Part shown: piece by piece, positions 2,935 through 53,570 of the stretch
Position numbering within the stretch: position 1 is the first letter of the stretch
How the letters are laid out: each line of letters begins with the position of its first letter
NCBI GenBank assembly: GCA_036339735.1
Contig: JAYZAL010000005.1
Location: 1 to 64,000 of the forward strand
Reading direction: 5' to 3'
DNA length: 64,000 bases
From: Candidatus Poribacteria bacterium
Lineage (GTDB): Bacteria; Poribacteria; WGA-4E; UBA9662
The notes under the pieces: model-generated
The model's database searches: none
Told to the model about the DNA's origin: nothing
The model's input: only the letters and a program-made list of their open reading frames with translations
Made by a program: the position numbers and the translations under genes

Positions 2935-2966
2935 GCTGCTTCATAACTAGCAAAGAGGCCTAAAAG

Positions 2967-8198: not shown

Positions 8199-8307
8199 AC
8201 CAATACCAGTGAGATTAATTAAAGAGGAACGAATCGATCGGTGTTAGTTAGTTATTCAGGAAGTTTTAATATACTTCCGTCAGTCTAGGAGGGAATCCAG
8301 CATCCAC

Positions 8308-8880: not shown

Positions 8881-8911
8881 AAATACATCCGTTCTAAATC
8901 AACAGATCTTG

Positions 8912-8940
8912 TTGACTTACTGCAATTAAATTGTTATAAC
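8912..8940 (+). promoter_or_regulatory. Sigma70-type promoter for the SDR gene
   Basis: TTGACT-N17-TATAAC with an extended -10 TG, in a divergent intergenic region. Confidence 0.55.
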
Positions 8941-9006
8941 GCACACTGTGATTATTTAGTCATAGGATAACTAAGATCAAAGTTTATTTAAAAGGAAATC
9001 AGACAC

Positions 9007-9771: not shown

Positions 9772-9774
9772 AAA

Positions 9775-10617
9775 CTATCCGTATGCACCATGATTTAAGA
9801 AACCTAGTAATCTTTTGAGTCGATCATCCGCATTTCTGTAAACATGTTCAGGCATAACATAATTCATAAACGGATAGTATTTATGACCAATTAATCGACG
9901 CGCATATGTAACCTGAGTAATATAACGGTTGCGACTGCTTCGGTTAGGACCGCCTCTATGCCAGACTTGATTATTAAACATGATGACACTACCCGCAGGG
10001 CCTAGATTGTGGTGGACTTTATCTTTCCACGGTGTACTTTCAATTTCTCCTGAAGGAGGGCGAGCACCAAATAAATGAGAACCAGGAATGACTTCAGTCC
10101 CACCATGTTCTACTTTGGCCACATCAGTCAAATAGTAGTTAGCAGTAAAAAGTAGAACTGGCAACCGAACATTTTTAGGTGGTTGACCATCTAATACTTG
10201 ATAATGTAGTCCATCATCTTGATGCCAACCTGTAATTCCACCACCAGGCCTTGTGACAAACGAGTTGTTGTGAATGACATGGCAATGAGCTTCAACGAGA
10301 GCCTCGGCGAAACTGACAATTGGTTCCAAGTCAAATAGGTTTAAATTCGCCTGGCTATGCTCAAACATCCGGTGGCATAAGTGCATCGATGAGCTTGCGT
10401 TCCCACTATTCAAGCCATTTGGATTGTTTTCTAGAGACCATTCTAAATCTGAACGCAATTGCTGACAGTGGTCATTTTTCAAAACCTGAGGTAGAAAGAG
10501 AAATCCTTCTTTGTGGAATTGTTCCACCCAATTTTTTATCTGCGATTGATCTACATCATAATTGGATTCAAATCGTCGATAGCTAATACTTCTTCCTTCC
10601 ATTTTCACTCCTAGCAT
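9775..10617 (-). CDS. Phytanoyl-CoA dioxygenase (PhyH) family Fe(II)/2OG dioxygenase
   Basis: WHQD, GGTEVIPGSH, GSVIMFNNQVWHRGGPNRS (HxD...H triad). Confidence 0.92.
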   Translation of the reverse strand: MLGVKMEGRSISYRRFESNYDVDQSQIKNWVEQFHKEGFLFLPQVLKNDHCQQLRSDLEWSLENNPNGLNSGNASSSMHLCHRMFEHSQANLNLFDLEPIVSFAEALVEAHCHVIHNNSFVTRPGGGITGWHQDDGLHYQVLDGQPPKNVRLPVLLFTANYYLTDVAKVEHGGTEVIPGSHLFGARPPSGEIESTPWKDKVHHNLGPAGSVIMFNNQVWHRGGPNRSSRNRYITQVTYARRLIGHKYYPFMNYVMPEHVYRNADDRLKRLLGFLNHGAYG

Positions 10618-10816
10618 TCGAGGATTGTCTTAACCATAAAAGCCTATCACATTTTCAATTTTTGGTTTTTCTCTGTTACAAAACCAGAAATTGAATCAAG
10701 ATAGTATACTGGGATTTTATTGGCTGAACATGCCCTATTTTCTGTTCGTAAATAGATCGGCTAACTAAAAATCCAGTGCAGCAAATCTAACCATGACATA
10801 AGAAACGAACTTCAAG

Positions 10817-11650
10817 TTAGTTTCCAGTTAAATCCCGCCAGATTCGGTCTAGTTCACCCCGAATAGCCTGAGCATCTTTCCAAAGATCTGGGAAAATTGA
10901 TAAAGCATAACCAGGTGGACCTTGTTCCGGGCACGCATACATAACATGGTCTTCGGTGGCTGATTCTAGCCAAGTTTTGATCACCATTTCTGCAAAAGGC
11001 AACCAATCGAGGAATTCTGGGGTGAAATTTCCATCATGATCTAATGCTGAAACCTGGCAGTGGTGGCCATTAAATGGACGGAAGTGAAACTGGGACGCAT
11101 ATTGAATCAAATCTACCCGCTCTGCCAAACGATCCCAGTAAGGTGGAGATATATGCTTGATTATAGCCGGATGTGAAAAATCCCAAGTAATTTTCATCGG
11201 ACGACCTTCGGATTGCTCATATCCTTCAGCTAATGCATAAGTCTTTTCTGGTGTTTCGGTACAAGTATCTCGGTGAACTTCAATCCCAACATCTAATTCT
11301 AAGTCATCAGCTATGCGAAGAACTTCAATTGCTAAAGGAACTGCCATTTCGGTTGGCGAATCATGGTCGAGCATTTGTACGTTAACACAAGCCGAACCAA
11401 CCGATTTGAGTTGTTCCAACTCGGCTCGAATATCGCTATTCAATCCAATATCGTGGATAGCACAAAATACCAATCCGGAGTTTTCTATAAGTTCCGAAGT
11501 AACTTGTGAAATTCGACCAGCGAACCCTGTAAAGCCAGCAGAACGGATAGAATCTAGTTTTTGTTCTAGATTCCACTCACTACCCTGGTTGCCATAACCA
11601 GTCAAGGTCCAAAGACTCGCTACGTGATGAATTGTTGGTTTGTTGTCCAT
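10817..11650 (-). CDS. Xylose-isomerase-like TIM barrel (sugar phosphate isomerase/epimerase)
   Basis: IEVHR, TWDFSH, FHFR and CPEQGP metal-ligand pattern. Confidence 0.75.
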   Translation of the reverse strand: MDNKPTIHHVASLWTLTGYGNQGSEWNLEQKLDSIRSAGFTGFAGRISQVTSELIENSGLVFCAIHDIGLNSDIRAELEQLKSVGSACVNVQMLDHDSPTEMAVPLAIEVLRIADDLELDVGIEVHRDTCTETPEKTYALAEGYEQSEGRPMKITWDFSHPAIIKHISPPYWDRLAERVDLIQYASQFHFRPFNGHHCQVSALDHDGNFTPEFLDWLPFAEMVIKTWLESATEDHVMYACPEQGPPGYALSIFPDLWKDAQAIRGELDRIWRDLTGN

Positions 11651-11732
11651 TGTACCTCCAAAGAATAAAAATCAAAAAACGGACTGAAAAAACCAGTCCT
11701 GACGACATAAAGAATGGGAACTATATAAGATC

Positions 11733-13355
11733 TCAGTCAGTTGCTTCGTCTTTATCAGTTGTTTCGTCGTCCTTATCCTCATTCTCAGTCTTGGCTTTTT
11801 CTTCTAAAAAATTCTGCTTTTCTACTGCAGATTCTACTAGCTTTCTTGCGGTTTCCAAATCATCTTTTGATACTAGGTTAACTAATGCTTCGATTGCTCC
11901 CACTGTTGATAACTGTACGGCTTTCCCCACTGGCTCTTCTAAGTGACTTAGTAATTTTTTCTTCAGCTCATATTCCCAGCCAAGATTAACTGTTAAATCT
12001 GGACGCTCAGTCATTAATTTCTCCGCCGCAACTTCAGATATCTGGGTTTTCCATAAGTAGACTTGCTCCAGTTTTTCGAGTAGTTTTAAATATTCTATCG
12101 AGGCATCACTTACCTCAGTATTAAACAAATTCAAGTAGACCAAATTCTTTAAGGCTGGTAAATGGGATATACCAATGTCCCCAACGTTGGTGTTTTCTAG
12201 GTGTAGACGGGTCAGGTTAGGATAATCTACCAATTTTTCCAACCCCGAGTCAGTTATTTTAGTCCCGCCAATATCTAACCAACGCAATTGTTCCTTAAAA
12301 GATTCCAAGTAGGAAAGTTGATTATCGCCAATTTCATCAGCAATTTGGCTAAAATCAATCTGAATGAAATTTGTGTCCTGTGCTATCGGAGCCGCTAATG
12401 CTCCCATTTGTACAAGGTTAGCTAAAGAATCCTTGTCAGCTGGTGGTATAACCTGTTCGACGATTTGATTTTTCTCAACTTTTACCTCTTCCGCTTGCTT
12501 GAACTTAGTACCCTGACTAATCCAAAGCCGAATCAATTCTTGGTCTTCGGCGGAAAGTGGAGGCCCGAAATTGGATGGAGGCATTACTTCATAGTCATCT
12601 TCAGGTAACGTCAGACGTCGAAATAGTTCGCTGTCTACTGGGTTACCAGCTACTAATAGAGAATTATCAAAGTTAGCCTCTACAATATTGGCAGCCGTAT
12701 CCAACCGGAGCCCCTTGATTTGTTCATCTGGGCCATGGCAAGTAATGCAATTTTTTTGGAAAATAGGTAATATTTGCTTGTCAAAGCTGACAAGATCTCC
12801 AACAATACTTTCTATTTCTTCTTTATTATTATTTTCGCTGGTTATAGATGTGGAGCTAGACTGATCCTCTTCAAAATTCTTGAAACTAGGCCACTCAGCT
12901 CCACGGTGAATCCAGTGGATAATTTGTATAGATTCTTCAGCTGTCAATCGGGGTCTATCTGTTCCTGGAGGTGGCATACTTCTGCTGTCTTCCACCGGCA
13001 AGGTGATGCGTTGAACAATAGTACTTGCTAGTGGATCATTGGGAATAATTGCGGCGACTCCACTGTTTCCTCCTTTTAATGCACTGGGTCGATCATCTAA
13101 ACGAAGTCCACTTTTCTGCCGATCTACCCCATGACAGTCGAAACATTTGGTTTTTAATAATTCCTGAATCAAATATGATTCTTGATCTGCAGTTTGAGAT
13201 TGATCTTCTGCTGATACACTGTACACACAAAATGTCAGAGAAAAAATTAGTAAAGCTGCCCACATGCAGGTGGAAGATAATAAAATTTGCACAAGATTAT
13301 GATTTGATCTATCCATAGTATTACTTATCCTGAGGTAACTTATTAGGGGGCGCAA
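11733..13355 (-). CDS. Two planctomycete-type cytochrome c domains plus leucine-rich repeats
   Basis: CFDCH and CITCH with GLRLD...MPP...WI.xG; LRRs (LRWLDIGGTKITDSGL, LTRLHLENTNVGDIGI, LVYLNLFNTEVSDASI). True start may be a downstream Met. Confidence 0.85.
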   Translation of the reverse strand: MRPLISYLRISNTMDRSNHNLVQILLSSTCMWAALLIFSLTFCVYSVSAEDQSQTADQESYLIQELLKTKCFDCHGVDRQKSGLRLDDRPSALKGGNSGVAAIIPNDPLASTIVQRITLPVEDSRSMPPPGTDRPRLTAEESIQIIHWIHRGAEWPSFKNFEEDQSSSTSITSENNNKEEIESIVGDLVSFDKQILPIFQKNCITCHGPDEQIKGLRLDTAANIVEANFDNSLLVAGNPVDSELFRRLTLPEDDYEVMPPSNFGPPLSAEDQELIRLWISQGTKFKQAEEVKVEKNQIVEQVIPPADKDSLANLVQMGALAAPIAQDTNFIQIDFSQIADEIGDNQLSYLESFKEQLRWLDIGGTKITDSGLEKLVDYPNLTRLHLENTNVGDIGISHLPALKNLVYLNLFNTEVSDASIEYLKLLEKLEQVYLWKTQISEVAAEKLMTERPDLTVNLGWEYELKKKLLSHLEEPVGKAVQLSTVGAIEALVNLVSKDDLETARKLVESAVEKQNFLEEKAKTENEDKDDETTDKDEATD

Positions 13356-13358
13356 AAA

Positions 13359-14825
13359 TCAGGCTAAAATGTCATCAATAACTTTAGCTTCTTCAACACC
13401 TGTTAGTCGGTGATCCAACCCCTGAAATTTAACCGATAGAAGACGGTGATCAACACCTAACTGATCAAGAATCGTAGCATTCAGCTGGTGAATGTGAACT
13501 GGGTCCCGAACAATGTTATAACTAAAATCGTCGGTTTCACCATAGACGATTCCTGGCTTAATCCCCGCTCCTGCCATCCAGACTGTGTAACACTTCGGGT
13601 GATGGTCTCGCCCATAATTTTTTCGAGTTAGAGACCCCTGACAGTAGATAGTTCTACCAAATTCCCCGCCCCAAACCACGAGCGTATCGTCCAGCATACC
13701 TCGTTGCTTTAGATCTTGTATGAGCGCCGTTGCTGGTTGATCAATGTCTCTTGCTTGATTAGGTAAATCACCAGTGACATTACCATGTTGATCCCAGCCT
13801 CTATGAAAAATCTGGCTGAACCTAACACCACGTTCAGCTAATCTCCTAGCCATTAAGCAGCAATATGCGAAAGTGCCGGGTTTGTGCACATCAGGACCAT
13901 ACATATCCAATATGTAGTCTGGCTCACTGGAAAAATCAGTTAATTCAGGGACGGAAGTTTGCATTCGAAATGCCATTTCATATTGCGAAATTCGCGCGTG
14001 TATTTCCGGGTCTCCGACCTCTTGGTAATTTTTCCTATTTAGTTGATTTAATGCGGTAAGCATTTCTTTTCGGGTTTGAGGCTTTACACCGTCTGGGTTC
14101 GACAAAAATAGAACAGGATCACCACTACTTCTGAGCAAAACTCCTTGATGCTGAGAAGGCAAAAAACCAGAACCCCATAGCCGGTTATAGAGTGCTTGAG
14201 CTGATTTCCTTCCGGTCCACGTAGCATTCATTACTACAAAGGCCGGTAAATCTTCGTTATCACTACCCAACCCGTAACTCAACCAAGAGCCTAAACTGGG
14301 TTTGCCTGGTAGCTGGTCACCAGTACAAATATAAGTGATAGCAGGATCATGGTTGATAGCTTCAGTGTGTACCGTCTTTATAATTGCTAAGTCACTAACC
14401 ATGGTTGAGTGGTACGGTAGGAGTTCACTTACCCAAGCCCCGTCTGCACCATTATCATATTTCTTGAATTTATAGACCGATGGTGCTATCGGAAATCTGC
14501 TTTGTCCTGACGTCATCGTAGTTAGACGCTGACCTTGACGAACAGACTCTGGCAACTCCTTGTCGAACCAATCGACCATCTTAGGTTTATAATCAAACAG
14601 GTCCAATTGTGAGGGAGCTCCTGACATAAATAAGTAGATAGCTCGTTTAGCTTTTGGTGGGTTGTGAGGCGATTTCAAAATACTCTTGTTTGATTCGCCT
14701 GCGATTGATTGGGAAATTGACGGGCCCATCAAAGTTGACAGGGCGGCTGTACCCAATCCTAAGGCAGCTTTACCAAAAAACTGGCGACGAGTCTCGTTAT
14801 GTAAATAATCTTTTATGGGTAGCAT
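13359..14825 (-). CDS. DUF1501 family protein (Tat signal)
   Basis: TRRQFFG Tat motif, [35 protein letters not shown]. Confidence 0.95.
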
Positions 14826-14842
14826 TGGTAGGCCCTCTCTTA

Positions 14843-17800
14843 TTATCCCTTTGTTAAAACCTCATCCAAGTTCAAAATTAGGTTTGCAATCATTGTCCAA
14901 GCTGCTAACTCTACGACTTCAATGGAATCGTCGACTTCGGATTCGCTGATTTTTATTAATTTCATACCAGCATCAGAATCTGACTCAAACTGATGTAGAT
15001 GCTTTTGCAGATTTTCTTCTAAAATGGCTAACTCTTCCGTATCTGGTAGCCGAGCAGTTGCTAACTCAAAGGCAAAGATTAATTTTTCCTGAATTGTTGT
15101 TCCACCTTCTTTGATAACACGCTTAGCAAAAGCTCTAGCCGCTTCCACAAACTGTGGATCATTCATTAACATTAAGGCTTGTAAAGGTGTGTTAGTTCGT
15201 TCTCGACGAACAGTACACACCTCACGAGATGGTGCATCCATGATAGCCATTTGAGGTGGAGGTGCTGTCCTTTTCCAAAAAGTATACAAACTGCGGCGAT
15301 GAACTTTTTCTTTACCCGTATCCGATACAAATCGGGCAGTATTAGAATCAGTATAGGCTACAGCATTCCACAATCCATCTGGTTGTGGTGGTTTCACACT
15401 TGGGCCTCCAATTTTTTCATACAGAAGGCCACTAACAGCTAAAGCCTGATCTCGAATCATTTCAGCATCTAAACGAAATCTTGGGCCACGGGCATAAAAA
15501 CGATTCTCAGGATCTTTTTCTAGCTTCGTGGGGGTTACTTCGGTTTTCTGCTTGTAAGTATCTGAGCTAACAAGCAAACGCATCATTTGCTTGACATCCC
15601 AACCGGTTTCAATTAACTCAGTCGCTAACCAGTCAAGTAATTGGGGGTGGCTGGGTCTTTCACCTTGACTACCAAAATCTTCTGCTGTTTTGACAATACC
15701 AGTACCAAATACCTGTTGCCAAAATCGATTGATAGTTACCCTGGCTGTAAGTGGATGGTTTGGATGAACCAACCATTTGGCTAAACCCATTCGATTTGGA
15801 GGATTATTATCATCCATAGGTGGTAAAACTGCAGGTGTATTGGGCTGTACTTGTTCTCGTCTCTGCGTATAGTCTCCTCGGTGTAAAATATAAGCTCCAC
15901 GCGGGGTTTCCCTTTCAGCCATGATTAATGTGGTCGCAATAGAACCCTCGACCTTAGACTTCTCCATTTCCTCTTGTTTGATTGCTTTACTAATTTCTTT
16001 TAAAGTCGAATGACTGGAGACATTCTGCCGGTAATAGTTTTGTAACTCTTGTCTTTGAGCTTCAGAGCGATCGGATTCGGATAATAACACCAAATCGAAC
16101 AATTGTGCTGGAATCAGTTCAACCTTTCCGGGTAAGTTGAAATAGAACCCCGAAGCACCACCATAGTTTATGATTTTAAGTAAAATTTTATTTTGTCCTT
16201 CTTTTAAGGGGACAACCACTTGATCTTGATCTGCCGCGACTCCCCGACTAACATCCTTACTGAATATCTCTAGGCCGTTAGCCCAAACCTTTATCGCATC
16301 GTCACTTCCTAGCGAGAAAGTAACCTTTTGGTCGGTAAAAGAATGAATGTTACGGTACAAAAACATGGCACTCGTATCTGGTATTTGAATGGAATGGATT
16401 TTCCCATCAATATACTCTTTTTGCTCTTCCCAAGTAAGTGTTTTCTCCCCTACCAAAAATTTCTGATTAATATCTATCTCTGATTCCTCTGGTGGATGAA
16501 CTTCGGCGAAATTTTCCACTGGGAAAGGACCCATCGCATACCAGTTCTCAGGAAGTGGTAACTTTTCCATCTCAGCATATTTACTTGATTGTGTAACAGC
16601 CAAACGTATTCGACCGAAATTATGCTGACTGTGCGGGGATTGATGTTTAACCAATAACCTAAGGGTGATGCTTGCATTTGTACCAAAGGTTTCACGGGCC
16701 AAGAAAATCGCTTGCCGGCTTTCTCGAAGCTTAAACCCTTCTGTAGCCCAACCTGTTTCAGCATTCCCATCAATAGCGTTGACAATCTTAAAATCACCAT
16801 TGGGCTGTTCATGATCAGCCCATGCTTGACTGAAAACAATCTTTTCCCATTGATCAGGTTGATCAACAGTGGAAAACTCAGCTTCAAATTCGCTTAATAC
16901 AACATTACCGTTTTCGCTTCTACCAGCCCCCTTGTGGGGTAGGGAATCATCGACTAGACCCTGTAGCCTAATACTTGTGTAACGACCTGCAGGCAATTTG
17001 GCAGAGATTTCGTACACTTCGTGATCTGGATTTGCACCACTAACTAGGACCGAATTGTCATTCAACAATTTAAGCTTGGCACCACTAGCCGCAGAATAGG
17101 AAATTGGTTGTAAAATTGTCCATCGGGGCAATTGACTTTCCCATTTTTTTTGATCAGCATCTACCTCAGGCATTGGTTCTCGTTGTTTCGTTCTCAGTTT
17201 GCTTAACTTTTGATTAATTTTTTCTAATTCTTCTTTTTGGTCAGTTGTGGCAACTTTTACGACAGGAGGTACAGCTTGCGCATTACCATCCATTGCCCGT
17301 TCGGTAATATTGTTAAAGTAGGAGTAAAATTGATAAAATTCTTTTTGTGTGATGGGATCAAATTTGTGATCGTGACAAGTAGCACAACCCATAGTCAGCC
17401 CCATCCAAACGGTTGAGGTCGTACTAGCCCGGTCAATAGCGTAACGGACATAGTATTCTTCATCGATTGATCCACCTTCGCTAGTGGTGACATTGCAACG
17501 GTTAAAGCCTGTGGCGACCTTTTGCTGTAATGTAGGGGTTGGTAAGAGATCACCAGCTAACTGTTCAATAGTAAACTGGTCAAATGGCATATTTGTATTG
17601 AATGCATTAATGACCCAATCCCTATAAGGCCACATTTGTCGGAAATTATCTAAGTGCAACCCGTGTGTGTCCCCATAACGAGCAACGTCCAGCCAAAAAC
17701 GTGCCATGTGCTCACCATATTGAGATTTTTCAAGTAGTCGGTCAACTAAACTCTCATATGATTTTGAACTTTTATCGGCAAGGAAACGATGAACCTCGCT

Positions 17801-18406
17801 TGAGGTAGGCGGCAAGCCTGTTAAATCGAACGTAACTCTTCGAATTAAATCTCTTTTATCCGCGATTTCAGAGGTAGTTAAGCCTTCAGAGTTCAAGCGT
17901 TTTCGAATAAAAAAGTCAACTGGATGTCCTTCCCAATCATTTGGTATTACGGGTTTTTGGATCGGATCTAGGGACCAATGTTCCTTCCACTCTGCACCTT
18001 CCTCAATCCAAGATTTCAGCATCTCAATTTCTTTCTGAGACAGAGAACGCTCAGAGTGAACTGGTGGCATCAGATCTTTTTTGTCTTTCGCTATCACGCG
18101 AAGATATAACTGGCTTTGAAGTGGTTTATACGGCGTGACAACCGATTGTTCCCCACGCTGCTTGAAAGCCCCCTCTCTTTGGTCTAGTCTCAAATTAGCC
18201 TGGCGTTGTTTTATGTCCGGACCATGGCAAGCGTAGCACTTATCAGACAAGATTGGCTGAATATCTCGAGTGAAGTCAATTTTTTCGGCCGACACAAAAT
18301 TCGGAGAAAGAAAATAACTAATCGCGACTGCAAAAAGTAACAGCCAATACGCGGAGATCGACAGCCGCCCCAACTTAAGTTCCCTGAAACTCATACTATT
18401 ACCCAC
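14843..18406 (-). CDS. Planctomycete cytochrome c + DUF1549 + beta-sandwich insertions + DUF1553 protein
   Basis: [42 protein letters not shown] (discoidin-like); [13 protein letters not shown] (PA14-like); [22 protein letters not shown]. Confidence 0.93.
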
Positions 18407-20228: not shown

Positions 20229-22934
20229 TTGAACGAAGCAGAAGCACGAGAAAACACTGACGACGAAAATAACGAAGAGCTTCAGACTGCTGAAGAATCT
20301 GCATCTGAAGAATCTGCATCTGAAGAATCTGCATCTGAAGAATCTGCATCTGAAGAATCTGCATCTGAAGAATCTGCATCTGAAGAATCTACATCTGAAG
20401 AATCTACATCTGAAGAATCTACATCTGGAGAGTCCGAATCTGGAGAATCTACCGAAGATCCTGAGATCGATGAAGAAGAAGAAGGTGTAAAGAAAATTGC
20501 CCGCTCACCAATGCAGGAAAAGTTGCTAGCTTTTGTTAACAACCCAGTGGTTAGCAGCTTAATGATGATTGCGACAATTTATGCACTGATTGGACTGGAT
20601 TTTGTCGCTTGGTTCAAAATGCCGAGTAAGTATGACATGATAATTGATGTCACCTCAGCAATTGCATTGTTCCTATTTTTCGCAGAATTTGGCCTCAAAA
20701 CCTATGCGGAGCAGGGTTATGTATGGAGCTTCTTCTTTTGGCTTGATTTCGTTGCTGCTGTATCCTTAGTTCCAGACGTACCTTGGATAGTTGATCCTAT
20801 AAAGAATTACTTTGGTCTGGGTGTGGGGGGGTCGGCCCTTAGTTTAGCCAGAGCTGGCCGTGCTGCCCGTGCAGGAGCTAGAGCTGGTCGAATTGCTCGA
20901 GTATTTAAGGTTCTTAACAAAATTGGTCCTTTCCTAGACCGATTGAGGGGTAAAGGCAATGATGTTGAAGGTTCTGATGATGACGATTTGGAAGGTTTAG
21001 AGCCAAGTGCCATTGGCAATGTTTTTTCTGAAAAAATGACACAAAAGGCAATTCTTGGTGTAATGGGTATGTTGATCATGACATCTATGTTCGACTATCA
21101 ACCCCCAACACCTTTCCCGGAATTTGCACTTCGATCCTTAGAAGTCAAAAGCGACGAGCAAGATGACGTTATTGACAGATATATTGCCAATACAAAAAAG
21201 GTTGACAAAGATGGAAAATTGATCAACCCAGCATTAATTTACCTCGCAGTTTCTGGACTGAATCAGTCTGAAAATTCAGGTCAAAAAGATGTCGTTGAGA
21301 AAACCTGGAAAAAAGACTTAGTAAAGGACATTTACTTTGAAGGAGAGGTCATCGCACTTAATGCGGATGGCGGTGTTTATGTTGCGCTGAATAAGCCTAG
21401 CGACGCAGAGAAATTGATGCGTACCGGAAATGTATTCCACGTGAAGGTTGGTGATAGTACCGATACTAAAGCTCGTTTGGTTGTCAAAGAACTTCGAGCC
21501 TCAGATGCTGATGGCCCCGAACTTAATGGGATTTCTTGTCGGATTGTTGATGCCAAGAGTGTCGCTCATAAACCAAGGAGTAGGGATATAGAACGTGGCA
21601 TTACCCAGTTTAGCGCAGGGCAACAGGATATTGTCGCATTGAAGAATTTACCAGAAGGTGGGGATGTGGCAGTTGGAGACCGAATTAGTTATCGAAACTT
21701 CGATGTCAAAAATTCTCAAATGCGTGCCAGAGACGTCTTATTCTATGAAACGCCTAATGGTAGTCGAGCGTGGTTCGATAAGCGTAACATTAATGCAGAA
21801 ATGGGCTTTAATGGATTTGTTATCATTGTCTTCGTTGTGGTTTTACTTGGTTTAGGTACTTTTGCTTTCCAAGCAGATGCACAGACTTTGTTCATTACAC
21901 CGATAGAACGGATGACTTTCATGGTCAAGACCTTAGCCGAGAATCCCTTGCGAACTGTTGAGACCACAAGGCGAAGAGGATCACATGAGACTGGTGTTAT
22001 TCAAGATGCCATGGTTAAGATCAGTAGTTTATTACAACTTGGGTTTGGTGAAGCAGGGGCAAAGATAATTGCTGAAAATCTGGCGCAGGAGGGGGAGCTG
22101 AACCCTATGGTGCCAGGACAGAAAGTTGATGCAATTTATGGTTTCTGTGACATTCGCAACTTTACTGATGCAACCGAGTGCTTACAGGAAGATGTAATGC
22201 TATTTGTTAATTCTGTAGCAGGTATATTACATCAGGCCGTCGCCGAAAATGGTGGTTCTCCAAACAAAAACATTGGTGATGCATTCCTTCTTGTTTGGAA
22301 GGATGGTGAAGATGGATCTCAAAATCCCGCAGATGGAGCATTACGTGCGTTCCTTCGTACGATGGAAGAAGTTAAGGCTGATGAGACTTTGAAAGAATTA
22401 GCCAAAAATAGTGAATTGCAGGAACGATTGCCTGGGTTTGAAACACAACTAGGATTTGGATTGCATCTTGGTTGGGCAATCGAGGGAGCTATTGGTTCAG
22501 AACAAAAAATTGATGCAACCTACCTCTCACCTCATGTGAATATCAGTGCTCGACTTGAGTCAGCAACCAAGCAGTATGGCACTCAACTTCTGATGTCAGG
22601 TGAGTTTGTTGAAGGGTTATCTCACGAAATGCGACCAAGTTGTCGTAAAATTGATGTGGTTACAGTGAAAGGCAGTGAACAACCAGTGATCTTATACACA
22701 ACCGATCTGGATGAGCCTTCAGAGTTTACACTGCTAGAATATTATGATACTTTTGAAATAGCAGTAGATCACTATCTAGCCGGTGAGTGGGATGAAGCCG
22801 TCGAAAACTTGACCATCTGCTTGGATGCTTGGCCGTCAGATCAGGTTGCCGAAGCTCTATTATCTTTCATGTCTGATCATGGCAATATTGCTCCTGACGA
22901 TTGGCCCGGTTATAGAGTTCTGGATTCTAAGTAA
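20229..22934 (+). CDS. Voltage-sensor (ion-transport-like) domain / class III adenylyl cyclase / TPR fusion protein
   Basis: S1-S3 helices (FFAEFGLK, FFFWLDFVAAVSL); S4 LARAGRAARAGARAGRIARVFK; two more TMs; LLQLGFGEAG; cyclase motifs FCDIRNFT, KNIGDAFL, KIDATYLSPHVNISARLES; C-terminal TPR-like helix pair. GAAGGAG SD before the TTG start. Confidence 0.92.
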   Translation: MNEAEARENTDDENNEELQTAEESASEESASEESASEESASEESASEESASEESTSEESTSEESTSGESESGESTEDPEIDEEEEGVKKIARSPMQEKLLAFVNNPVVSSLMMIATIYALIGLDFVAWFKMPSKYDMIIDVTSAIALFLFFAEFGLKTYAEQGYVWSFFFWLDFVAAVSLVPDVPWIVDPIKNYFGLGVGGSALSLARAGRAARAGARAGRIARVFKVLNKIGPFLDRLRGKGNDVEGSDDDDLEGLEPSAIGNVFSEKMTQKAILGVMGMLIMTSMFDYQPPTPFPEFALRSLEVKSDEQDDVIDRYIANTKKVDKDGKLINPALIYLAVSGLNQSENSGQKDVVEKTWKKDLVKDIYFEGEVIALNADGGVYVALNKPSDAEKLMRTGNVFHVKVGDSTDTKARLVVKELRASDADGPELNGISCRIVDAKSVAHKPRSRDIERGITQFSAGQQDIVALKNLPEGGDVAVGDRISYRNFDVKNSQMRARDVLFYETPNGSRAWFDKRNINAEMGFNGFVIIVFVVVLLGLGTFAFQADAQTLFITPIERMTFMVKTLAENPLRTVETTRRRGSHETGVIQDAMVKISSLLQLGFGEAGAKIIAENLAQEGELNPMVPGQKVDAIYGFCDIRNFTDATECLQEDVMLFVNSVAGILHQAVAENGGSPNKNIGDAFLLVWKDGEDGSQNPADGALRAFLRTMEEVKADETLKELAKNSELQERLPGFETQLGFGLHLGWAIEGAIGSEQKIDATYLSPHVNISARLESATKQYGTQLLMSGEFVEGLSHEMRPSCRKIDVVTVKGSEQPVILYTTDLDEPSEFTLLEYYDTFEIAVDHYLAGEWDEAVENLTICLDAWPSDQVAEALLSFMSDHGNIAPDDWPGYRVLDSK
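20292..20456 (+). repeat. In-frame 15-bp tandem repeat (VNTR) encoding EESAS/EESTS
   Basis: 6x GAAGAATCTGCATCT, 3x GAAGAATCTACATCT and 2 degenerate units, read directly. Confidence 0.97.
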
Positions 22935-29997: not shown

Positions 29998-30040
29998 CCA
30001 GGAAGTCAGAAGGCTACAATGTAAACAACTGACTTCCTGG
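29998..30040. terminator. 12-bp perfect inverted repeat between convergent genes (possible bidirectional terminator)
   Basis: CCAGGAAGTCAG-N19-CTGACTTCCTGG; no strong U-tract. Confidence 0.5.
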
Positions 30041-30051
30041 GCCCGTAGTAG

Positions 30052-30453
30052 TTAATTAGTTGATTGCAAAACAGCCTGATATCGGCCGCCAAGGTTCACG
30101 ACTGCATCAACTAATTGTTGACTCGTGACCTCACCTTTGTTTATTGTAACGACAGCACTATTTGGCATAGCAACGTCGGCTTTAACTACACCGGCAATTT
30201 CTGTGAGTGCAGACCGCACTCTGGTGACACAGCTGGCACCTCACGTCATCCCAGAAACTTTAAGCGAAACAGTTTCTGTTACTACATCATTGCCCGAAGC
30301 TGTTTTTGTATTTGATTGATTTGTCGAGTGATCTTTTTTTTCGACGTTTGTCTGTCCAGTTTCCGTCTCAATTTGACTTTGTTTCGAACACCCCAAAGTC
30401 AAAAGTAGACTTAAACTGACCAGAAAAACGCAAAAGTATTTCTGTTTTAACAT
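30052..30453 (-). CDS. Selenocysteine-containing heavy-metal-associated (HMA/CopZ/MerP-like) lipoprotein, 133 aa, UGA at codon 71
   Basis: AGAGGT SD plus ATG at 30453; lipobox LTLGC. In-frame TGA (30241-30243) in VSGMT-U-GASC; the frame continues 62 aa as an HMA fold (VRSALTEIAGVVKADV...QLVDAVVNLGGRY) to TAA at 30052; SECIS-like hairpin just downstream of the TGA. Confidence 0.88.
30201..30232 (-). promoter_or_regulatory. Bacterial SECIS element
   Basis: mRNA GAGUGC-GGUCU-GCACUC hairpin, loop starting 25 nt after the UGA; lower stem CUGU/ACAG; resembles the E. coli fdhF SECIS apical GGUCUGCAC. Confidence 0.8.
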
Positions 30454-30493
30454 ACAATATACCTCTAGCTGGAAATTGCACACAATTGTATAA

Positions 30494-32755
30494 GTGATTG
30501 CTGGCTATTGTCAATTCGATTTTGGGTTATCAAAAATGCAGTTGGTATTATTATTAAATGGTCGCCTAATTTTTATATTCTACATATTGGTTTTAATATC
30601 AATTAAGTCTATCTCAGCATTAGCTAGTGACGAATCTAATTTCCAGACAGCGGTAGAAAGATATCGAGAGAGAATCAACCAAGACCCTAAAAATTTAGAT
30701 TTACACAGAGAAATGATACTTTATGCGACCAAAACCAATCGAATAAATGTACCATTGCATATTTACAAAAATATTCAGGCTAAACAGCCTAATAACCCTC
30801 TCTTTTGCTATCTATTAGCTTATACCTACTTTCACTCTAAACATAGTATAGAACAAGCGATAGATTTAGCTAAAAAAACTTTATCTCATCAAAATAATTT
30901 CTGGCAAGCTAGTCAATTGTTAGGTGAATGCTATACACAAACAGGTAATACAAAATTGGCGGAGGAGATTTTCTTGCAAGCTGTTGAGGCCCACACGGAT
31001 GCTTGGCCTATAAAACTGCAATTAGCCAAGTTATACCAAAGTCAACAAGCTTATTTACGAGCTCTTACATATTATCGTCAACTTTCTTCCAACGAGCCGA
31101 AGTCAGCTTCCATACACTTTGAGATTGGTTTAATCCTACGTCATTTAAAGCGTTTACCCGAAGCTCAATCAGCTTTTCAAAGGTCTATTCGTCACGACAA
31201 AAAATATGTTTCAGCTCATTATCAAATAGGACAGATTTATGCTCTTCAAAAACGGCCTAACAAGGCAATAGACCAATACCGGAGAGCCCGTAAGTTTGAT
31301 CCTGCGCCCAAGCCTAAACCACGTTACGAGTTAGCAGCTATTTTTCTAAAACAGGAAGATGGACGTAATGCTATTTTAGCTTTAAGGAGCGGCATATCAC
31401 TGGATTCAAAGTATGCAAATTACACTAATCAATTCCAAAATGTTAGTACTTTGAATGCCGCTAAGAAACTTTCTGAAATATTGACTAATCTTCCAATAGA
31501 AACAGAAGATGATTGTTTCCTACACTTTTTTGTTGCCCATTTACATATCAAGACAGAACAGTTTGAAACTGCTCGTTGGCATTTAGAGCAAATTATATCA
31601 TTACAGCCGAACCACGCCGAAAGTCATGCCTTACTTGGTCAAATTTACGAACAATCCAATATGCCTGAAGCTATCAATGCCTTTGAACAAGCCGTTGAGC
31701 ATGGAAATGAAAAGGTTGAGATCATGCTCAAGCTAGCTCAAAATTATCAGAGGCAGAAAAAAAATGATAAATTCGTGGTAATTGCAGAAAAAATTTTGGC
31801 TTTGTCGCAGCATCCAGAAATTCACTATCAACTTGCTCTTTACTATGAAGAACAGGCTTTAATTAGAAAAGAATTTCTGGAAGAAGAAGCCATTACAAAA
31901 TTAGAGGAAAAAGCTTTATACCATGTTGACCAAGCGGTAAAAATAAATCCCGAATCGGCCAAGTATAATCTGAAACTGGGTTCTTACTACGATCAACGAA
32001 AAAAATTAAAAGCTATCCGGTTCTACGAAAAAGCAATTCAACTCGACCCACAAAACCCAGAAGGTTATTATAAACGGGGATTATTCATGTCTAACTACAC
32101 TTTTGGGGCAGCCAAAGTTTTATTATATGCTCCTGAAGATGTGATGGCAGATTTGACAAAATCGATTCAACTTGATCCAAATTCGATTGGTGCTCACCGA
32201 GCAATGGGTATTGTCTATGACCGAATGTATGATGTACCCAATGCCATCAAGTCTTTCAAAAGGGTAATTCAGTTAAACCCTCAAGATAGTTACGCCCAAA
32301 TTTATTTGGCTGAAAAATATGCGAATTCGGGACAAATACAGTTGGCAGTTAGCGCCTTGGAGCAAGCAATTAAAGGTAGTCCGAGCGATGTTGAAGCATT
32401 GAAAGATTACGCTTTCTTATCTTTGAAGTTTAATCAAGAATTGTTATGGAAGAAGGCTAAGAAGGCCCTGGAAACAGCTAACAAAATTCGTCCTGACGAT
32501 GCAGAAATTCTAATGAACTACGGATACACACTTTATCTAAGTGGTGAAATAGAGAAATCAGTTGAACAATATAAAAAATCGATTCAGCAAAAACCTGATT
32601 GGGATATAACATACTATAATCTAGCTTTAGCCTATGAACGTCTTAGGAAATATGATCTAGCAAAACAATCTTATCAAAAAGTATCTGAAATTAATCCAAA
32701 TGGTCCTTTGAACAATAAATCTATCAATCGACTGATCTTACTAGAGGGAAAGTAA
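30494..32755 (+). CDS. Tetratricopeptide repeat protein
   Basis: Many TPRs (AHYQIGQIY, YYNLALAYE, AHRAMGIVY); N-terminal hydrophobic segment; start uncertain. Confidence 0.9.
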   Translation: MIAGYCQFDFGLSKMQLVLLLNGRLIFIFYILVLISIKSISALASDESNFQTAVERYRERINQDPKNLDLHREMILYATKTNRINVPLHIYKNIQAKQPNNPLFCYLLAYTYFHSKHSIEQAIDLAKKTLSHQNNFWQASQLLGECYTQTGNTKLAEEIFLQAVEAHTDAWPIKLQLAKLYQSQQAYLRALTYYRQLSSNEPKSASIHFEIGLILRHLKRLPEAQSAFQRSIRHDKKYVSAHYQIGQIYALQKRPNKAIDQYRRARKFDPAPKPKPRYELAAIFLKQEDGRNAILALRSGISLDSKYANYTNQFQNVSTLNAAKKLSEILTNLPIETEDDCFLHFFVAHLHIKTEQFETARWHLEQIISLQPNHAESHALLGQIYEQSNMPEAINAFEQAVEHGNEKVEIMLKLAQNYQRQKKNDKFVVIAEKILALSQHPEIHYQLALYYEEQALIRKEFLEEEAITKLEEKALYHVDQAVKINPESAKYNLKLGSYYDQRKKLKAIRFYEKAIQLDPQNPEGYYKRGLFMSNYTFGAAKVLLYAPEDVMADLTKSIQLDPNSIGAHRAMGIVYDRMYDVPNAIKSFKRVIQLNPQDSYAQIYLAEKYANSGQIQLAVSALEQAIKGSPSDVEALKDYAFLSLKFNQELLWKKAKKALETANKIRPDDAEILMNYGYTLYLSGEIEKSVEQYKKSIQQKPDWDITYYNLALAYERLRKYDLAKQSYQKVSEINPNGPLNNKSINRLILLEGK

Positions 32756-52352: not shown

Positions 52353-53570
52353 ATGGAATCACCTATTTTTTTAGACCATCATTCCACTACGCCAATTGAT
52401 CCAGATGTTTTATCAGAAATGATACCGTTCTTGACTCAAAACTTTGGTAATGCTTCTAGTAATCACATTTTTGGTCAAGAGGCTCGCAGGGCCGTTGAAA
52501 AAGCCCGTACGCAAGTAGCAGACCTAATTGGGGCTAAACCACAAGAAATTATCTTTACCAGTGGGGCTACAGAATCTGACAACTTGGCTATCAAAGGTGT
52601 TGCGGAGAGTTATCATCGTCGGGGAAATCATATAATAACGACACAAATCGAGCATAGTGCGATCTTAGATACCTGTTACTTTCTAGAGAAATTAGGTTTT
52701 GAAACAACCTATCTACCCGTGGATAAATACGGCATGGTTGACCCAGAGCAGGTCGCGTCAGCTATTAAACCAAACACAATCTTAATCAGTATAATACATG
52801 CCAGTAACGAAGTTGGAACAATCAACCCTTTGGCTGAAATTGGCCAAATTGCTCGCCAAGCAGGCGTTCTGTTTCATTCAGATGCCGTACAGGCTATCGG
52901 AAAAATTGATGTTAATGTTGATCATTTAAATATTGATCTGATGTCATTGACAGCCCATAAAGTTTATGGCCCCAAAGGAATTGGTGCACTTTACATTCGA
53001 CGAAAAAAACCAAAAATCCGTATCAAGCCTCAAAACTATGGTGGAGGACAAGAAGGAAAAATTCGTTCTGGCACACTGAATGTATCAGGGATTGTCGGTT
53101 TTGGCTATGCTTGCCAAATAGCACAAACCAAGATGCAGAAAGAATCAGAACAGCTAATTAGCTTACGGTCTCGTTTGTACGAAGGACTCAAAGAACAAAT
53201 TGATTTTCTACATTTAAATGGTCACCCGCAAAAACGACTACCTGGGAACCTCAATGTCAGTATTGAATTTGTTGACAGTGTAACCCTATTGGAAAAGTTA
53301 AAGGATATCGCGTTATCTACAGGTTCAGCATGTTCATCCAATTCATCAGCACCATCTAAAGTTTTGACAGCTATGGGAATTGACGACAATCTCGCACGTA
53401 ATCCCATACGATTTGGTTTGGGACGAAGTAATACCAAAAATGAAATAGATTTTGTTGTTTCGCGAGTGGTAGAAGAAGTGAAAAATATGAGAGAGTCATC
53501 CCCTCTTTACAAATTAATGGGATCAGAAGTTGAATTATCTCCCCCAAATCGAATGAAAAGGGTTAATTAA
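52353..53570 (+). CDS. iscS: Cysteine desulfurase (IscS/NifS group I)
   Basis: FTSGATESDN, HSDAVQ, TAHKVYGPKG, RSGTLN, STGSACSS. Confidence 0.95.
   Translation: MESPIFLDHHSTTPIDPDVLSEMIPFLTQNFGNASSNHIFGQEARRAVEKARTQVADLIGAKPQEIIFTSGATESDNLAIKGVAESYHRRGNHIITTQIEHSAILDTCYFLEKLGFETTYLPVDKYGMVDPEQVASAIKPNTILISIIHASNEVGTINPLAEIGQIARQAGVLFHSDAVQAIGKIDVNVDHLNIDLMSLTAHKVYGPKGIGALYIRRKKPKIRIKPQNYGGGQEGKIRSGTLNVSGIVGFGYACQIAQTKMQKESEQLISLRSRLYEGLKEQIDFLHLNGHPQKRLPGNLNVSIEFVDSVTLLEKLKDIALSTGSACSSNSSAPSKVLTAMGIDDNLARNPIRFGLGRSNTKNEIDFVVSRVVEEVKNMRESSPLYKLMGSEVELSPPNRMKRVN

What the first reader, a model, noticed from the sequence alone, without database searches (positions are those of the whole stretch)
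30052..30453. Hidden selenoprotein: exported HMA lipoprotein with a U-x3-C metal site and SECIS
Seen: the ORF track stops at KVSGMT*, but the TGA sits exactly at the first Cys of the HMA motif GMxCxxC. The frame continues as GASCVTRVRSALTEIAGVVKADV..., completing the domain, and a hairpin GAGUGC-GGUCU-GCACUC lies at SECIS distance. Established: Sec recoding needs selA/B/C/D, and MerP/HMA-type selenoproteins are known. Unusual here are the three-residue spacing (UGASC) and the lipoprotein signal with a polar linker. Inference: a membrane-tethered chaperone for soft metals (Cu, Hg), and the organism uses Sec.
Basis: partly seen in the sequence, partly recalled or inferred. Interest (0 to 1): 0.75.

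Follow-up and report, generated by a model that had tools for sequence, protein, structure and literature searches.

The report
Hidden selenocysteine metal-binding lipoprotein gene
A small gene that looks cut short by a stop codon most likely encodes a membrane-tethered metal-binding protein with selenocysteine at its metal site, conserved in three related marine Poribacteria-type genomes and missed by routine annotation.

Summary
On the minus strand, 30453..30052 is one 133-codon frame broken only by TGA at codon 71 (30243..30241). Read through, it gives a signal peptide with a lipobox Cys, a polar linker and a complete HMA domain. The TGA falls on the first metal-ligand Cys (GMT-U-GAS-C).

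It is neither a sequencing error nor a pseudogene. Two syntenic genomes, a Candidatus Poribacteria MAG and an uncultured-bacterium MAG, keep the TGA, the frame and the TAA stop. Their proteins are 92% and 67% identical to the window's. Downstream of the TGA, dN/dS is 0.07 at dS about 1.45.

In the protein collections, 22 of 22 N-terminal fragment clusters end exactly at ...SGMT. One cluster reads W there and none reads Cys.

A 6-bp hairpin with loop GGUCU lies 25 nt after the UGA. It meets all four published bacterial SECIS criteria and stays fully paired in all three genomes.

TGA is an ordinary stop for 12 of 46 window ORFs.

The x3 spacing is not unique, because Cys-form C-x3-C HMA domains exist. 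HMA-type selenoproteins are already known, but this protein falls below the cut-off of every curated model.

Sec machinery could not be checked in this genome. The metal specificity is inferred.

The parts
30485..30514 (-). Sigma-70-like promoter, TTGACA-18 nt-TACAAT
   Evidence: It matches 11 of 12 consensus positions. Both hexamers are invariant in the window, L001 and L002, although L002 is only 76% identical overall.
30462..30465 (-). Shine-Dalgarno-like GAGG, 8 nt before the ATG
   Evidence: Read directly from the sequence. The window and L001 have GAGG and L002 has GAGA.
30052..30453 (-). Full coding sequence: 133 codons with TGA at codon 71, then TAA
   Evidence: Translation with TGA=U. 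The same architecture is present in L001 and L002. Relatives' predicted proteins start MLKQK or MLRQK, which supports ATG 30453 over the upstream GTG 30483.
30388..30453 (-). Signal peptide ending in lipobox-like L-T-L-G-C (Cys22)
   Evidence: A hydrophobic stretch followed by G21-C22-S23, which are invariant in 6 of 6 aligned relatives. There is a weak, below-cut-off NCBIfam lipoprotein hit (NF033216, 21.6 bits against 42). No signal-peptide predictor was available.
30280..30387 (-). Polar, low-complexity linker (residues 23-58)
   Evidence: AlphaFold pLDDT is below 50 over residues 20-51. It is the least conserved part of the protein, and upstream dN/dS against L002 is 0.18 compared with 0.07 downstream.
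30058..30279 (-). HMA (ferredoxin-like beta-alpha-beta-beta-alpha-beta) domain, residues 59-132, spanning the TGA
   Evidence: Pfam PF00403 scores above its gathering score. AlphaFold pLDDT is 92-98 in the 10-residue blocks from residue 61 on, with elements E59-67, H73-84, E89-95, E99-105, H111-119 and E126-132. Foldseek matches HMA7, CopA, MerP and CopZ at target-normalised TM 0.83-0.92.
30241..30243 (-). In-frame TGA, codon 71, proposed selenocysteine; aligns to the first metal-ligand Cys
   Evidence: TGA is kept in L001 and L002 while the adjacent Thr codon varies (ACG or ACA). 22 of 22 N-terminal fragment clusters end here and one reads W. It aligns to Cys in P0141 and in PDB HMA domains.
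30229..30231 (-). Cys75 (TGT), the second ligand, four residues after U71
   Evidence: Cys is invariant in the window, L001, L002 and fragment P0174.
30205..30221 (-). SECIS-like hairpin: 6-bp stem, 5-nt loop GGUCU, 25 nt after the UGA
   Evidence: Present in the minimum-free-energy fold, at -9.5 kcal/mol for the 19-nt segment. 18 of 18 cells are paired in the 3 sequences, with one G-C to G-U change. All four bSECIS constraints of PMC13188914 are met. It shares GGUCUGCAC with the E. coli fdhF SECIS.
30000..30040 (.). Inverted repeat between the convergent gene ends (possible bidirectional terminator)
   Evidence: The 10-bp stem is visible in a chance sub-threshold Rfam alignment. It is kept in L001 and replaced in L002 by a different hairpin followed by a T-run. 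The consensus terminator scan did not call it.

Best explanation
The gene encodes a 133-residue selenoprotein.

- Expression: transcription starts from a conserved sigma-70-type promoter.
- Recoding: the ribosome reaches UGA at codon 71. A hairpin 25 nt downstream (6-bp stem, loop GGUCU) recruits SelB carrying Sec-tRNA(Sec), and selenocysteine is inserted instead of termination.
- Export and anchoring: the N-terminal signal peptide directs export. Cys22 of the lipobox is lipidated, so the mature protein hangs from a membrane on a flexible polar linker of about 36 residues.
- Metal site: the C-terminal HMA domain presents Sec71, in the loop between beta-1 and alpha-1, and Cys75, in the first turn of alpha-1, as a selenolate/thiolate pair. 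This pair binds a soft metal ion in the periplasm or at the cell envelope. Cu(I) is most likely and Hg(II) is possible. The protein would act as a high-affinity chaperone or scavenger.

Shown here: the frame, the domain, conservation of the UGA, purifying selection after it, the conserved hairpin, and that TGA is otherwise a stop.

Inferred: Sec rather than another residue, lipidation, metal binding, and which metal.
For: - Frame and domain: the single frame with TGA at codon 71 gives an HMA domain that spans the TGA.
- Conservation of the UGA: three genomes keep TGA, the frame, the length after it (62 codons) and the TAA stop. They are collinear over 20.4 kb at 91.2% and 14.7 kb at 76.1% nucleotide identity.
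- Selection after the TGA, window against L002: dS 1.45, dN 0.10, omega 0.07. Differences by codon position are 11, 3 and 30.
- Pattern of conservation: the post-TGA part is more conserved (50 of 62 residues identical) than the pre-TGA part (57-58% in related N-terminal fragments). The 12 residues before the TGA (beta-1 plus GMT) are identical.
- Protein collections: of 28 related clusters, 22 are N-terminal fragments ending ...SGMT, 1 reads W (a code-4 gene call, so TGA), 1 diverges earlier, 4 are C-terminal fragments, and 0 carry Cys.
- Cys homologues: secreted P0141 (GMSCEVNC) is 46% identical over 70 residues, with Cys aligned to U71.
- Hairpin: loop 5 nt, stem 6 bp, GG first in the loop, spacing 25 nt, -8.0 to -9.5 kcal/mol. 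This meets the constraints of a 3-9 nt loop, a 4-16 bp stem, G in the first two loop positions, 16-37 nt spacing and an energy of -7.5 or lower. Only 1.1% of 2593 TGA triplets do as well.
- TGA is a normal stop: it ends 12 of 46 ORFs.
- Sec use in the phylum: a Poribacteria MAG of another order is listed with SelA, SelB, SelD and tRNA-Sec (PMC13582414, Supplementary Table 1; main-text passage).
- Precedent: HMA-type selenoproteins are known (NF041115 UxxU, and a P-type ATPase with UxxC; tables in PMC13188914 and PMC9312934).
Against: - No selA, selB, selD or tRNA-Sec was found in the 64 kb window or in the flanks of the two loci. They need not be linked, but the trait is unverified for this genome.
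- Only three DNA sequences were available. The hairpin shows no compensatory double change (0 of 6 pairs), and its conservation could partly reflect the conserved peptide R-V-R-S-A-L that it encodes.
- The 45- and 64-nt segments fold no better than shuffles.
- No Rfam family matched.
- In L002 a different long hairpin starting at the UGA is the minimum-free-energy fold.
- No metal-handling gene (copA, merT, merA, cus) lies beside the gene.
- The best curated selenoprotein model is far below its cut-off (49.4 bits against 95).
- The lipobox is non-canonical at position -2 or -3. In L002 it reads A-W-G-C.
- No signal-peptide predictor was run.
Confidence: 0.72

Rival explanations
1. The protein is a selenoprotein, but the Sec71/Cys75 pair works as a redox centre (a selenenylsulfide) and not as a metal ligand. 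The HMA fold would have been recruited as an exported thiol-type oxidoreductase.
For: Most prokaryotic selenoproteins are redox proteins with UxxC or CxxU motifs (tables and text of PMC13188914 and PMC2398784). No metal transporter or mer/cop gene lies nearby. An oxidised MerP with a disulfide has been crystallised (1osd, listed).
Against: The fold, the GM-T motif before the first ligand and all nearest solved relatives are metal binders. The review passage says Sec may act as a metal ligand in several exported selenoproteins. No thioredoxin-like feature is present.
Confidence: 0.13
2. The UGA is read through without selenocysteine. Near-cognate or programmed insertion of Trp, Cys or another residue would give a full-length non-seleno HMA protein.
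For: Purifying selection after the UGA shows only that the frame is translated, not which residue is inserted. Sec machinery is unverified for this genome.
Against: The UGA sits exactly on the metal-ligand Cys position. It is followed at the right distance by a conserved hairpin with GG in the loop that shares 9 nt with the E. coli fdhF SECIS. TGT or TGC is one step away, yet it is seen in 0 of 3 genomes and 0 of 23 clusters that reach the site. TGA terminates 12 of 46 ORFs.
Confidence: 0.07
3. The UGA is a true stop. The locus would make a 70-residue lipopeptide and, separately, a 55-residue peptide started at the GTG eight codons downstream of the UGA (as the gene callers predict), or nothing downstream.
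For: Public gene calls split it this way: 22 N-terminal and 4 C-terminal fragment clusters. The ORF listing finds the GTG-started 55-aa ORF.
Against: The split would cut one compact domain between beta-1 and alpha-1, where AlphaFold confidence is high on both sides (pLDDT 92-98 in the 10-residue blocks from residue 61 on). The most conserved stretch of the N-terminal piece is beta-1 plus GMT, right at the TGA. Gly72 and Cys75, which lie between the TGA and the GTG, are conserved with synonymous changes around them. No Shine-Dalgarno sequence precedes the GTG (sequence).
Confidence: 0.05
4. The TGA is a sequencing error, an assembly artefact or a recent nonsense mutation (a pseudogene).
For: None was found beyond the bare in-frame stop.
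Against: The same TGA occurs in three independent assemblies of different species-level lineages (91% and 76% nucleotide identity) and in 23 protein clusters from many contigs. Omega is 0.07 downstream at dS about 1.45.
Confidence: 0.01

Closest known systems
NCBIfam NF041115, UxxU metal-binding (seleno)protein (listed as 'putative mercuric reductase' or 'metal-binding protein' in PMC9312934 and PMC13188914)
   Same: A single small HMA-fold protein with selenocysteine in the metal-binding loop. It is the best NCBIfam hit (E 3.8e-13, residues 58-127).
   Different: The score of 49.4 bits is far below the cut-off of 95. That family has two Sec residues in U-x2-U, whereas this protein has one Sec in U-x3-C. 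This protein also carries a signal peptide, a lipobox and a linker.
MerP, the periplasmic Hg(II)-binding protein (TIGR02052; PDB 1afi, 1osd)
   Same: An exported single HMA domain with GMT before the first ligand. Foldseek gives target-normalised TM 0.85-0.90 and 35-37% identity. The sequence E-value is 2e-7.
   Different: The score of 37 bits is below the cut-off of 92.55. There is no merT, merA or merR in the 64 kb window. MerP has C-x2-C and is soluble in the periplasm, not lipid-anchored.
CopZ/Atx1-type copper chaperones and the N-terminal HMA domains of Cu(I) P-type ATPases, including the known UxxC selenoprotein form of a cation-transporting ATPase
   Same: The same fold and the same ligand positions. 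The ATPase form shows that Sec can replace the first Cys of an HMA motif (tables).
   Different: Those proteins are cytoplasmic or fused to a pump. This one is a stand-alone exported protein with x3 spacing. All CopZ models score below their cut-offs.
Cys-form C-x3-C HMA domains (for example P0141, a 107-aa secreted protein with GMSCEVNC, and multi-domain proteins with repeated GMMCQKNC)
   Same: The same one-residue-longer ligand spacing. P0141 is 46% identical over the domain and also has a signal peptide.
   Different: They carry Cys, not Sec. P0141 has no lipobox Cys. The library gives no names or genomic context for these proteins.
NF045683, MerT/CopZ fusion-like heavy metal transport selenoprotein
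   Same: An HMA-like module within a selenoprotein linked to heavy-metal handling.
   Different: The score is 21.6 bits against a cut-off of 375, and this protein has no MerT membrane domain.

Membership tests
Pfam HMA (PF00403) | Profile score at or above the gathering score | tested here: met
   29.6 bits against 24.8, residues 64-122 on profile positions 2-60 of 62.
Pfam HMA (PF00403) | Beta-alpha-beta-beta-alpha-beta ferredoxin-like fold | tested here: met
   The AlphaFold model (Cys substituted for Sec) has pLDDT 92-98 in the 10-residue blocks from residue 61 on, with the expected order of elements. Foldseek matches solved HMA domains at target-normalised TM 0.83-0.92.
Pfam HMA (PF00403) | Two ligand residues at the beta-1/alpha-1 loop and the start of alpha-1, after G-M-x | tested here: met
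   U71 and C75 align to the two Cys residues of solved HMA domains and of P0141.
Pfam HMA (PF00403) | Canonical C-x2-C spacing | tested here: not met
   The spacing is x3, seen as a one-residue insertion in every alignment to a solved domain. The same spacing occurs in 108 Cys-form motifs, against 466 x2 motifs, in 155 near hits.
Bacterial selenoprotein (UGA decoded as Sec) | In-frame UGA conserved in orthologues | tested here: met
   3 of 3 DNA sequences. 22 of 22 N-terminal fragments stop there and 1 reads W.
Bacterial selenoprotein (UGA decoded as Sec) | Coding constraint continues in frame after the UGA | tested here: met
   Omega is 0.07 (against L002) and 0.05 (against L001) over 62 codons, and the TAA stop is the same.
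Bacterial selenoprotein (UGA decoded as Sec) | Homologues with Cys aligned to the UGA | tested here: met
   P0141 and PDB HMA domains. No close Cys orthologue above 46% identity was found among 1.84 billion representatives.
Bacterial selenoprotein (UGA decoded as Sec) | bSECIS hairpin: 3-9 nt loop, 4-16 bp stem, G in the first two loop positions, 16-37 nt from the UGA, energy of -7.5 kcal/mol or lower (PMC13188914, Fig. 2 legend) | tested here: met
   5-nt loop GGUCU, 6 bp, 25 nt, -8.0 to -9.5 kcal/mol, and kept in 3 of 3 sequences. bSECISearch itself was not available.
Bacterial selenoprotein (UGA decoded as Sec) | selA, selB, selC (tRNA-Sec) and selD in the same genome | not testable with these tools
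   None was found in the window or in L001 and L002. The only support is indirect: a Poribacteria MAG of another order has them.
Bacterial selenoprotein (UGA decoded as Sec) | Selenium shown in the protein | not testable with these tools
   This needs 75Se labelling or mass spectrometry.
NF041115 UxxU metal-binding (seleno)protein | Score at or above the curated cut-off, and a UxxU motif | tested here: not met
   49.4 bits against 95. The motif is U-x3-C with one Sec.
MerP (TIGR02052) | Score at or above the cut-off, and a mer operon context | tested here: not met
   37 bits against 92.55. No MerT, MerA or MerR family was hit among the 46 distinct window ORFs scanned.
Bacterial lipoprotein | Signal peptide followed by a lipobox with an invariant Cys | tested here: inconclusive
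   The hydrophobic region and G21-C22-S23 are invariant in 6 of 6 relatives. Residues at positions -3 and -2 are atypical (T-L, and A-W in L002). Only below-cut-off lipoprotein model hits were found. No LipoP or SignalP was available, and the lipobox rule is recalled from memory.

The most novel reading that the evidence does not exclude
This is the founding member of an unannotated family of extracytoplasmic, lipid-anchored HMA selenoproteins specific to pelagic Poribacteria-type bacteria. Its selenolate/thiolate U-x3-C site would give an unusually high affinity for Hg(II) or Cu(I) at oceanic trace concentrations, a selenium-based envelope defence or scavenging device with no dedicated partner genes. 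Alternatively, it is an HMA fold converted into an exported selenenylsulfide redox protein.
Probability: 0.15. Interest if true: 0.65.

Novelty: new variant of a known kind. Interest (0 to 1): 0.45.

Why it matters
It adds a selenoprotein family that current annotation misses. Every public gene call found in the two length ranges searched, apart from one made under genetic code 4, truncates or splits the gene.

It is sequence-level evidence that a free-living marine Poribacteria-type lineage uses selenocysteine.

It places Sec in a metal-ligand position of an exported, membrane-tethered HMA domain. That bears on the open question of whether bacterial Sec serves as a metal ligand as well as a redox catalyst, a question raised in PMC13188914 and in the 2022 bioRxiv preprint 10.1101/2022.07.06.499078 (passages seen).

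In practical terms, it is a clean test case for UGA-aware gene calling in metagenome-assembled genomes.

Tried and rejected
- Rfam: the local E-value search gave only three sub-threshold chance matches to eukaryotic miRNA and lncRNA models. The whole-window gathering search gave 0 matches. No SECIS family matched.
- First search for related loci attempt: a 10-row alignment that included the Cys homologue failed for lack of a conserved stretch. A 6-row alignment of close relatives worked. In that scan 57 stretches matched a pattern and 2 were confirmed.
- 'MerP' selenoprotein of the ocean-sampling survey (PMC2398784): its two reads in the held supplement bear no similarity to this protein. The strings SGMTU and GMTUG are absent from the 4 supplement files held as text, which may be truncated.
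- Other selenoprotein candidates in the window: a scan for frames bridged by one or two TGAs with both pieces of at least 40 codons listed 12 frames, this one included. Judged by coordinates alone, the other 11 lie in alternative frames of annotated ORFs or at gene junctions. I did not test them individually.
- Copies of the hairpin elsewhere in the window: none with up to 2 mismatches, apart from the site's own reverse strand.
- Long alternative hairpin starting at the UGA, which is the minimum-free-energy fold in L002: it is paired in only 83% of cells and fails the loop-G and spacing constraints in the window. It is rejected as the common element but not excluded for L002.
- Covariation: uninformative with 3 sequences.
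- Genome-wide TGA reassignment (genetic codes 4 or 25): rejected, because 12 of 46 ORFs end in TGA.
- Literature: searches for 'selenoprotein' with 'heavy metal-associated', 'bacterial' and 'SECIS', and for 'selenoprotein', 'HMA domain' and 'selenocysteine', returned 0 papers. Searches with MerP and CopZ, followed by in-paper searches for PF00403, UxxxC, HMA and lipoprotein in PMC13188914, turned up no description of this family.
No complex prediction, atlas search or 'longer' homologue search was run, so fused forms were not looked for.
Full report
**Observation.** The feature lies on the minus strand. Under table 11 the ORF list shows an 80-aa ORF (30483..30241) ending ...KVSGMT at a TGA. 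A separate 55-aa ORF (30219..30052) follows in the same frame. Translating 30453..30052 with TGA=U gives one 133-residue product followed by TAA. It consists of:
- a hydrophobic N-terminus ending L-T-L-G-C;
- a polar stretch rich in Q, T, N, K and E;
- the motif GMT-U-GAS-C and the rest of an HMA domain.

Pfam HMA matches residues 64-122, across the TGA, above its gathering score (29.6 against 24.8 bits, E 9.2e-7). All elements of the observation are therefore real.

**Organism and setting.** The window is 40.6% G+C and about 94% coding. It carries PSCyt1, PSCyt2, PSD1 and DUF1501 genes and housekeeping genes.

- L001 is contig PAYP01000002.1, titled MAG Candidatus Poribacteria bacterium. Its protein is 92% identical.
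- L002 is contig CAYVHK010000055.1, an uncultured-bacterium MAG. Its protein is 67% identical.

The window is collinear with L001 over 20.4 kb at 91.2% nucleotide identity and with L002 over 14.7 kb at 76.1%. Gene order is the same. The gene is monocistronic. It lies between a divergent TPR gene and a convergent GFO/IDH/MocA oxidoreductase gene. No metal-handling gene is adjacent.

**Is the TGA real and is the downstream frame translated?** Several lines of evidence agree.
- All three DNA sequences carry TGA at the same codon, while the neighbouring Thr codon varies between ACG and ACA. All keep 62 further codons in frame and the same TAA.
- Downstream of the TGA, window against L002, dS is 1.45, dN is 0.10 and omega is 0.07. 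Of 44 differences, 30 fall at third codon positions. Against L001 omega is 0.05.
- Upstream omega is higher, at 0.18 against L002, because the linker drifts. The 12 residues just before the TGA (strand beta-1 plus G-M-T) are identical.
- In the protein collections, 28 related clusters were found: 6 and 22. Of these, 22 are N-terminal fragments that all end ...SGMT. One full-length call reads W at the site, meaning a gene caller used genetic code 4 and the codon is TGA. One diverges before the site, and 4 are C-terminal fragments. None has Cys or any other sense residue there.
- TGA is not reassigned in this organism. It terminates 12 of the 46 long ORFs in the window, alongside TAA (21) and TAG (13).

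Sequencing error, a recent nonsense mutation and a pseudogene are excluded.

**Domain integrity.** An AlphaFold model was built from a 14-row alignment with Cys in place of Sec. One row, P0141, was misaligned by MAFFT. The model gives pLDDT 92-98 in the 10-residue blocks from residue 61 on. The elements are E59-67, H73-84, E89-95, E99-105, H111-119 and E126-132, and residues 20-51 score below 50.

Foldseek against the PDB returns the HMA7 copper domain, CopA N-terminal domains, MerP and CopZ, at target-normalised TM 0.83-0.92 and rmsd 1.0-1.7 Å. The TGA therefore falls inside one compact domain, in the loop between beta-1 and alpha-1. This argues against two independent products.

In HMMER alignments to solved HMA domains, U71 aligns with the first ligand Cys and C75 with the second, with a one-residue insertion between them.

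**The x3 spacing.** It is non-canonical but not unique. Among 155 near hits examined, I counted 466 GMxCxxC motifs and 108 GMxCxxxC-only motifs, the latter in 37 proteins. One of these, P0141, is a 107-aa protein with a signal peptide and a single HMA domain (GMSCEVNC). It is 46% identical to the window protein over 70 residues, with Cys aligned to U71. This protein is therefore the Sec form of an existing C-x3-C HMA subtype.

No closer Cys orthologue exists among 1.84 billion representatives. In that search 1636 proteins had E of 0.001 or lower. Apart from fragments, the best hits are multi-domain HMA proteins.

**SECIS.** A 2026 review (PMC13188914, Fig. 2 legend; passage seen) gives the bacterial consensus:
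- apical loop of 3-9 nt;
- upper stem of 4-16 bp;
- a G in the first two loop positions;
- 16-37 nt between the UGA and the loop;
- energy of -7.5 kcal/mol or lower.

The hairpin here has a 5-nt loop GGUCU, a 6-bp stem and 25 nt spacing. Its energy is -8.0 kcal/mol when evaluated as 17 nt and -9.5 kcal/mol when folded as 19 nt.

With a simple contiguous-stem implementation of those rules, 1.1% of 2593 TGA triplets in the window (about 29, this one included) have a hairpin at least as stable.

The hairpin is fully paired in all three genomes (18 of 18 cells). The only stem change is G-C to G-U, and there is one loop change, U to C. Both are synonymous.

It shares the 9-mer GGUCUGCAC with the apical part of the E. 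coli fdhF SECIS, which I fetched and folded for comparison. That G and U of that loop contact SelB is recalled knowledge, not tested here.

The SECIS evidence has four weaknesses:
- There are no compensatory double changes, and three sequences are too few to expect any.
- The 45- and 64-nt segments are no more stable than shuffles (z -0.56).
- Rfam gives no match.
- L002 has an alternative long hairpin starting at the UGA (z -3.2). That hairpin is only 83% paired across the three sequences and breaks the loop and spacing rules in the window.

**Expression signals.** A TTGACA-18-TACAAT promoter (11 of 12 matches) lies at 30514..30485. Both hexamers are invariant in all three genomes, even though the surrounding sequence diverges. 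A GAGG lies 8 nt before ATG 30453. Relatives' proteins start at the same Met. An inverted repeat at 30000..30040 separates the convergent genes.

**Export and anchoring.** The N-terminus has a hydrophobic core followed by G-C-S, which is invariant in 6 of 6 aligned relatives. This fits a lipoprotein signal. The residues before the Cys are atypical, and only below-cut-off lipoprotein models match. No dedicated predictor was available, so lipidation is probable but inferred.

**Sec machinery.** No tRNA gene was found in the window, L001 or L002. No SelA, SelB or SelD family was hit among the 46 distinct window ORFs scanned. The nearest relevant gene is an IscS-type cysteine desulfurase at 52353..53570. 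The rest of the genome could not be searched.

Indirect support comes from the literature:
- A 2026 study lists Poribacteria among phyla with Sec-containing hydrogenase variants (PMC13582414, passage). Its Supplementary Table 1 records SelA, SelB, SelD and tRNA-Sec for a Poribacteria MAG of another order.
- A sponge-microbiome study notes that SelA and SelB co-occur in symbiont bins of various phyla (PMC5649159, passage).

**Comparison with what is known.** HMA-type selenoproteins are established in the literature and in NCBIfam:
- the UxxU 'metal-binding (seleno)protein', NF041115;
- a UxxC cation-transporting ATPase;
- MerT-type transporters;
- a MerT/CopZ fusion, NF045683.

These appear in tables of PMC13188914, PMC9312934, PMC2398784 and PMC1976440 (passages seen). 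The window protein hits NF041115 best, at 49.4 bits against a cut-off of 95. MerP, CopZ and the fusion model are all below their cut-offs as well. It therefore works like these proteins but belongs to none of the curated families.

The 'MerP' selenoprotein reads in the ocean-survey supplement are unrelated. I found no description of a U-x3-C HMA lipoprotein in the searches, or in the in-paper searches. Supplements other than those cited were not read.

**Mechanism.** I commit to SelB- and SECIS-dependent insertion of Sec at codon 71. The product would be an exported, probably lipid-anchored HMA protein whose Sec71/Cys75 pair binds a soft metal ion in the cell envelope. By analogy with the nearest relatives, Cu(I) is most likely and Hg(II) is possible.

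Confidence that the gene is a selenoprotein is about 0.85. Confidence in the whole statement, including the metal-binding role, is 0.72. Rivals:

| Rival | Confidence |
|---|---|
| Redox role for the Se-S pair | 0.13 |
| Read-through without Sec | 0.07 |
| True stop with split products | 0.05 |
| Artefact or pseudogene | 0.01 |

**Verdict.** The novelty is moderate. It is a new, unannotated variant of a known kind (HMA selenoproteins), distinguished by the x3 spacing, the single Sec, the export and anchor architecture, and its occurrence in a Poribacteria-type lineage. Interest is 0.45.

Noticed in passing
window 20023-40452; L001 1-20399; L002 1-14728: The window is collinear with a Candidatus Poribacteria MAG contig at 91.2% nucleotide identity and with an uncultured-bacterium MAG contig at 76.1%. 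The window therefore comes from a Poribacteria-type genome that appears to be a different species from both.
   Followed up: partly
proteins P0010-P0145: 37 of 155 near hits carry HMA domains with C-x3-C spacing. Many are long proteins with 3-5 tandem GMMCQKNC-type domains plus one canonical C-x2-C domain. The library gives them no names or context, and what this subtype binds is unknown to me.
   Followed up: no
L002 10208-10249: In the more distant relative, the 42 nt starting at the UGA fold into one long G-U-rich hairpin (-20 kcal/mol, z -3.2, 1 of 200 shuffles as good). This competes with the short conserved hairpin and is only partly possible in the window.
   Followed up: partly
window 30000-30040: A 10-bp inverted repeat lies between the convergent ends of the HMA gene and the GFO/IDH/MocA gene. 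It is kept in L001 with changes and replaced in L002 by a different hairpin followed by a T-run. It is likely a bidirectional terminator, but the consensus scan does not call it.
   Followed up: partly
protein P0002: One public gene call, on a 591-bp contig, reads the TGA as W. The gene caller evidently switched to genetic code 4 on a short contig. The call happens to be full length but names the wrong residue.
   Followed up: no
window 53574-54971 (+): A 465-aa ORF has no Pfam or NCBIfam match. It lies between an IscS-type cysteine desulfurase (52353-53570) and an Mrp/NUBPL-type P-loop ATPase (55032-55985), which suggests a possible Fe-S-related role.
   Followed up: no
window 6621-18406 (-): This is a cluster of PSCyt1, PSCyt2, PSD1 and DUF1501 genes typical of Planctomycetes-like genomes. 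It includes a PSCyt1 protein with leucine-rich repeats at 11733-13355.
   Followed up: no
window 19-3332 (+): A very long (971 aa) ORF has a FliD C-terminal domain only at residues 128-294 and is followed by a FlgM-like anti-sigma-28 gene. The remaining ~680 residues of the FliD-like protein are unassigned.
   Followed up: no
window 20229-22934 (+): A 901-aa ORF with only a weak Ion_trans match (26.6 bits) lies between a solute-binding protein gene and the permease and ATPase genes of an ABC sugar-type transporter.
   Followed up: no
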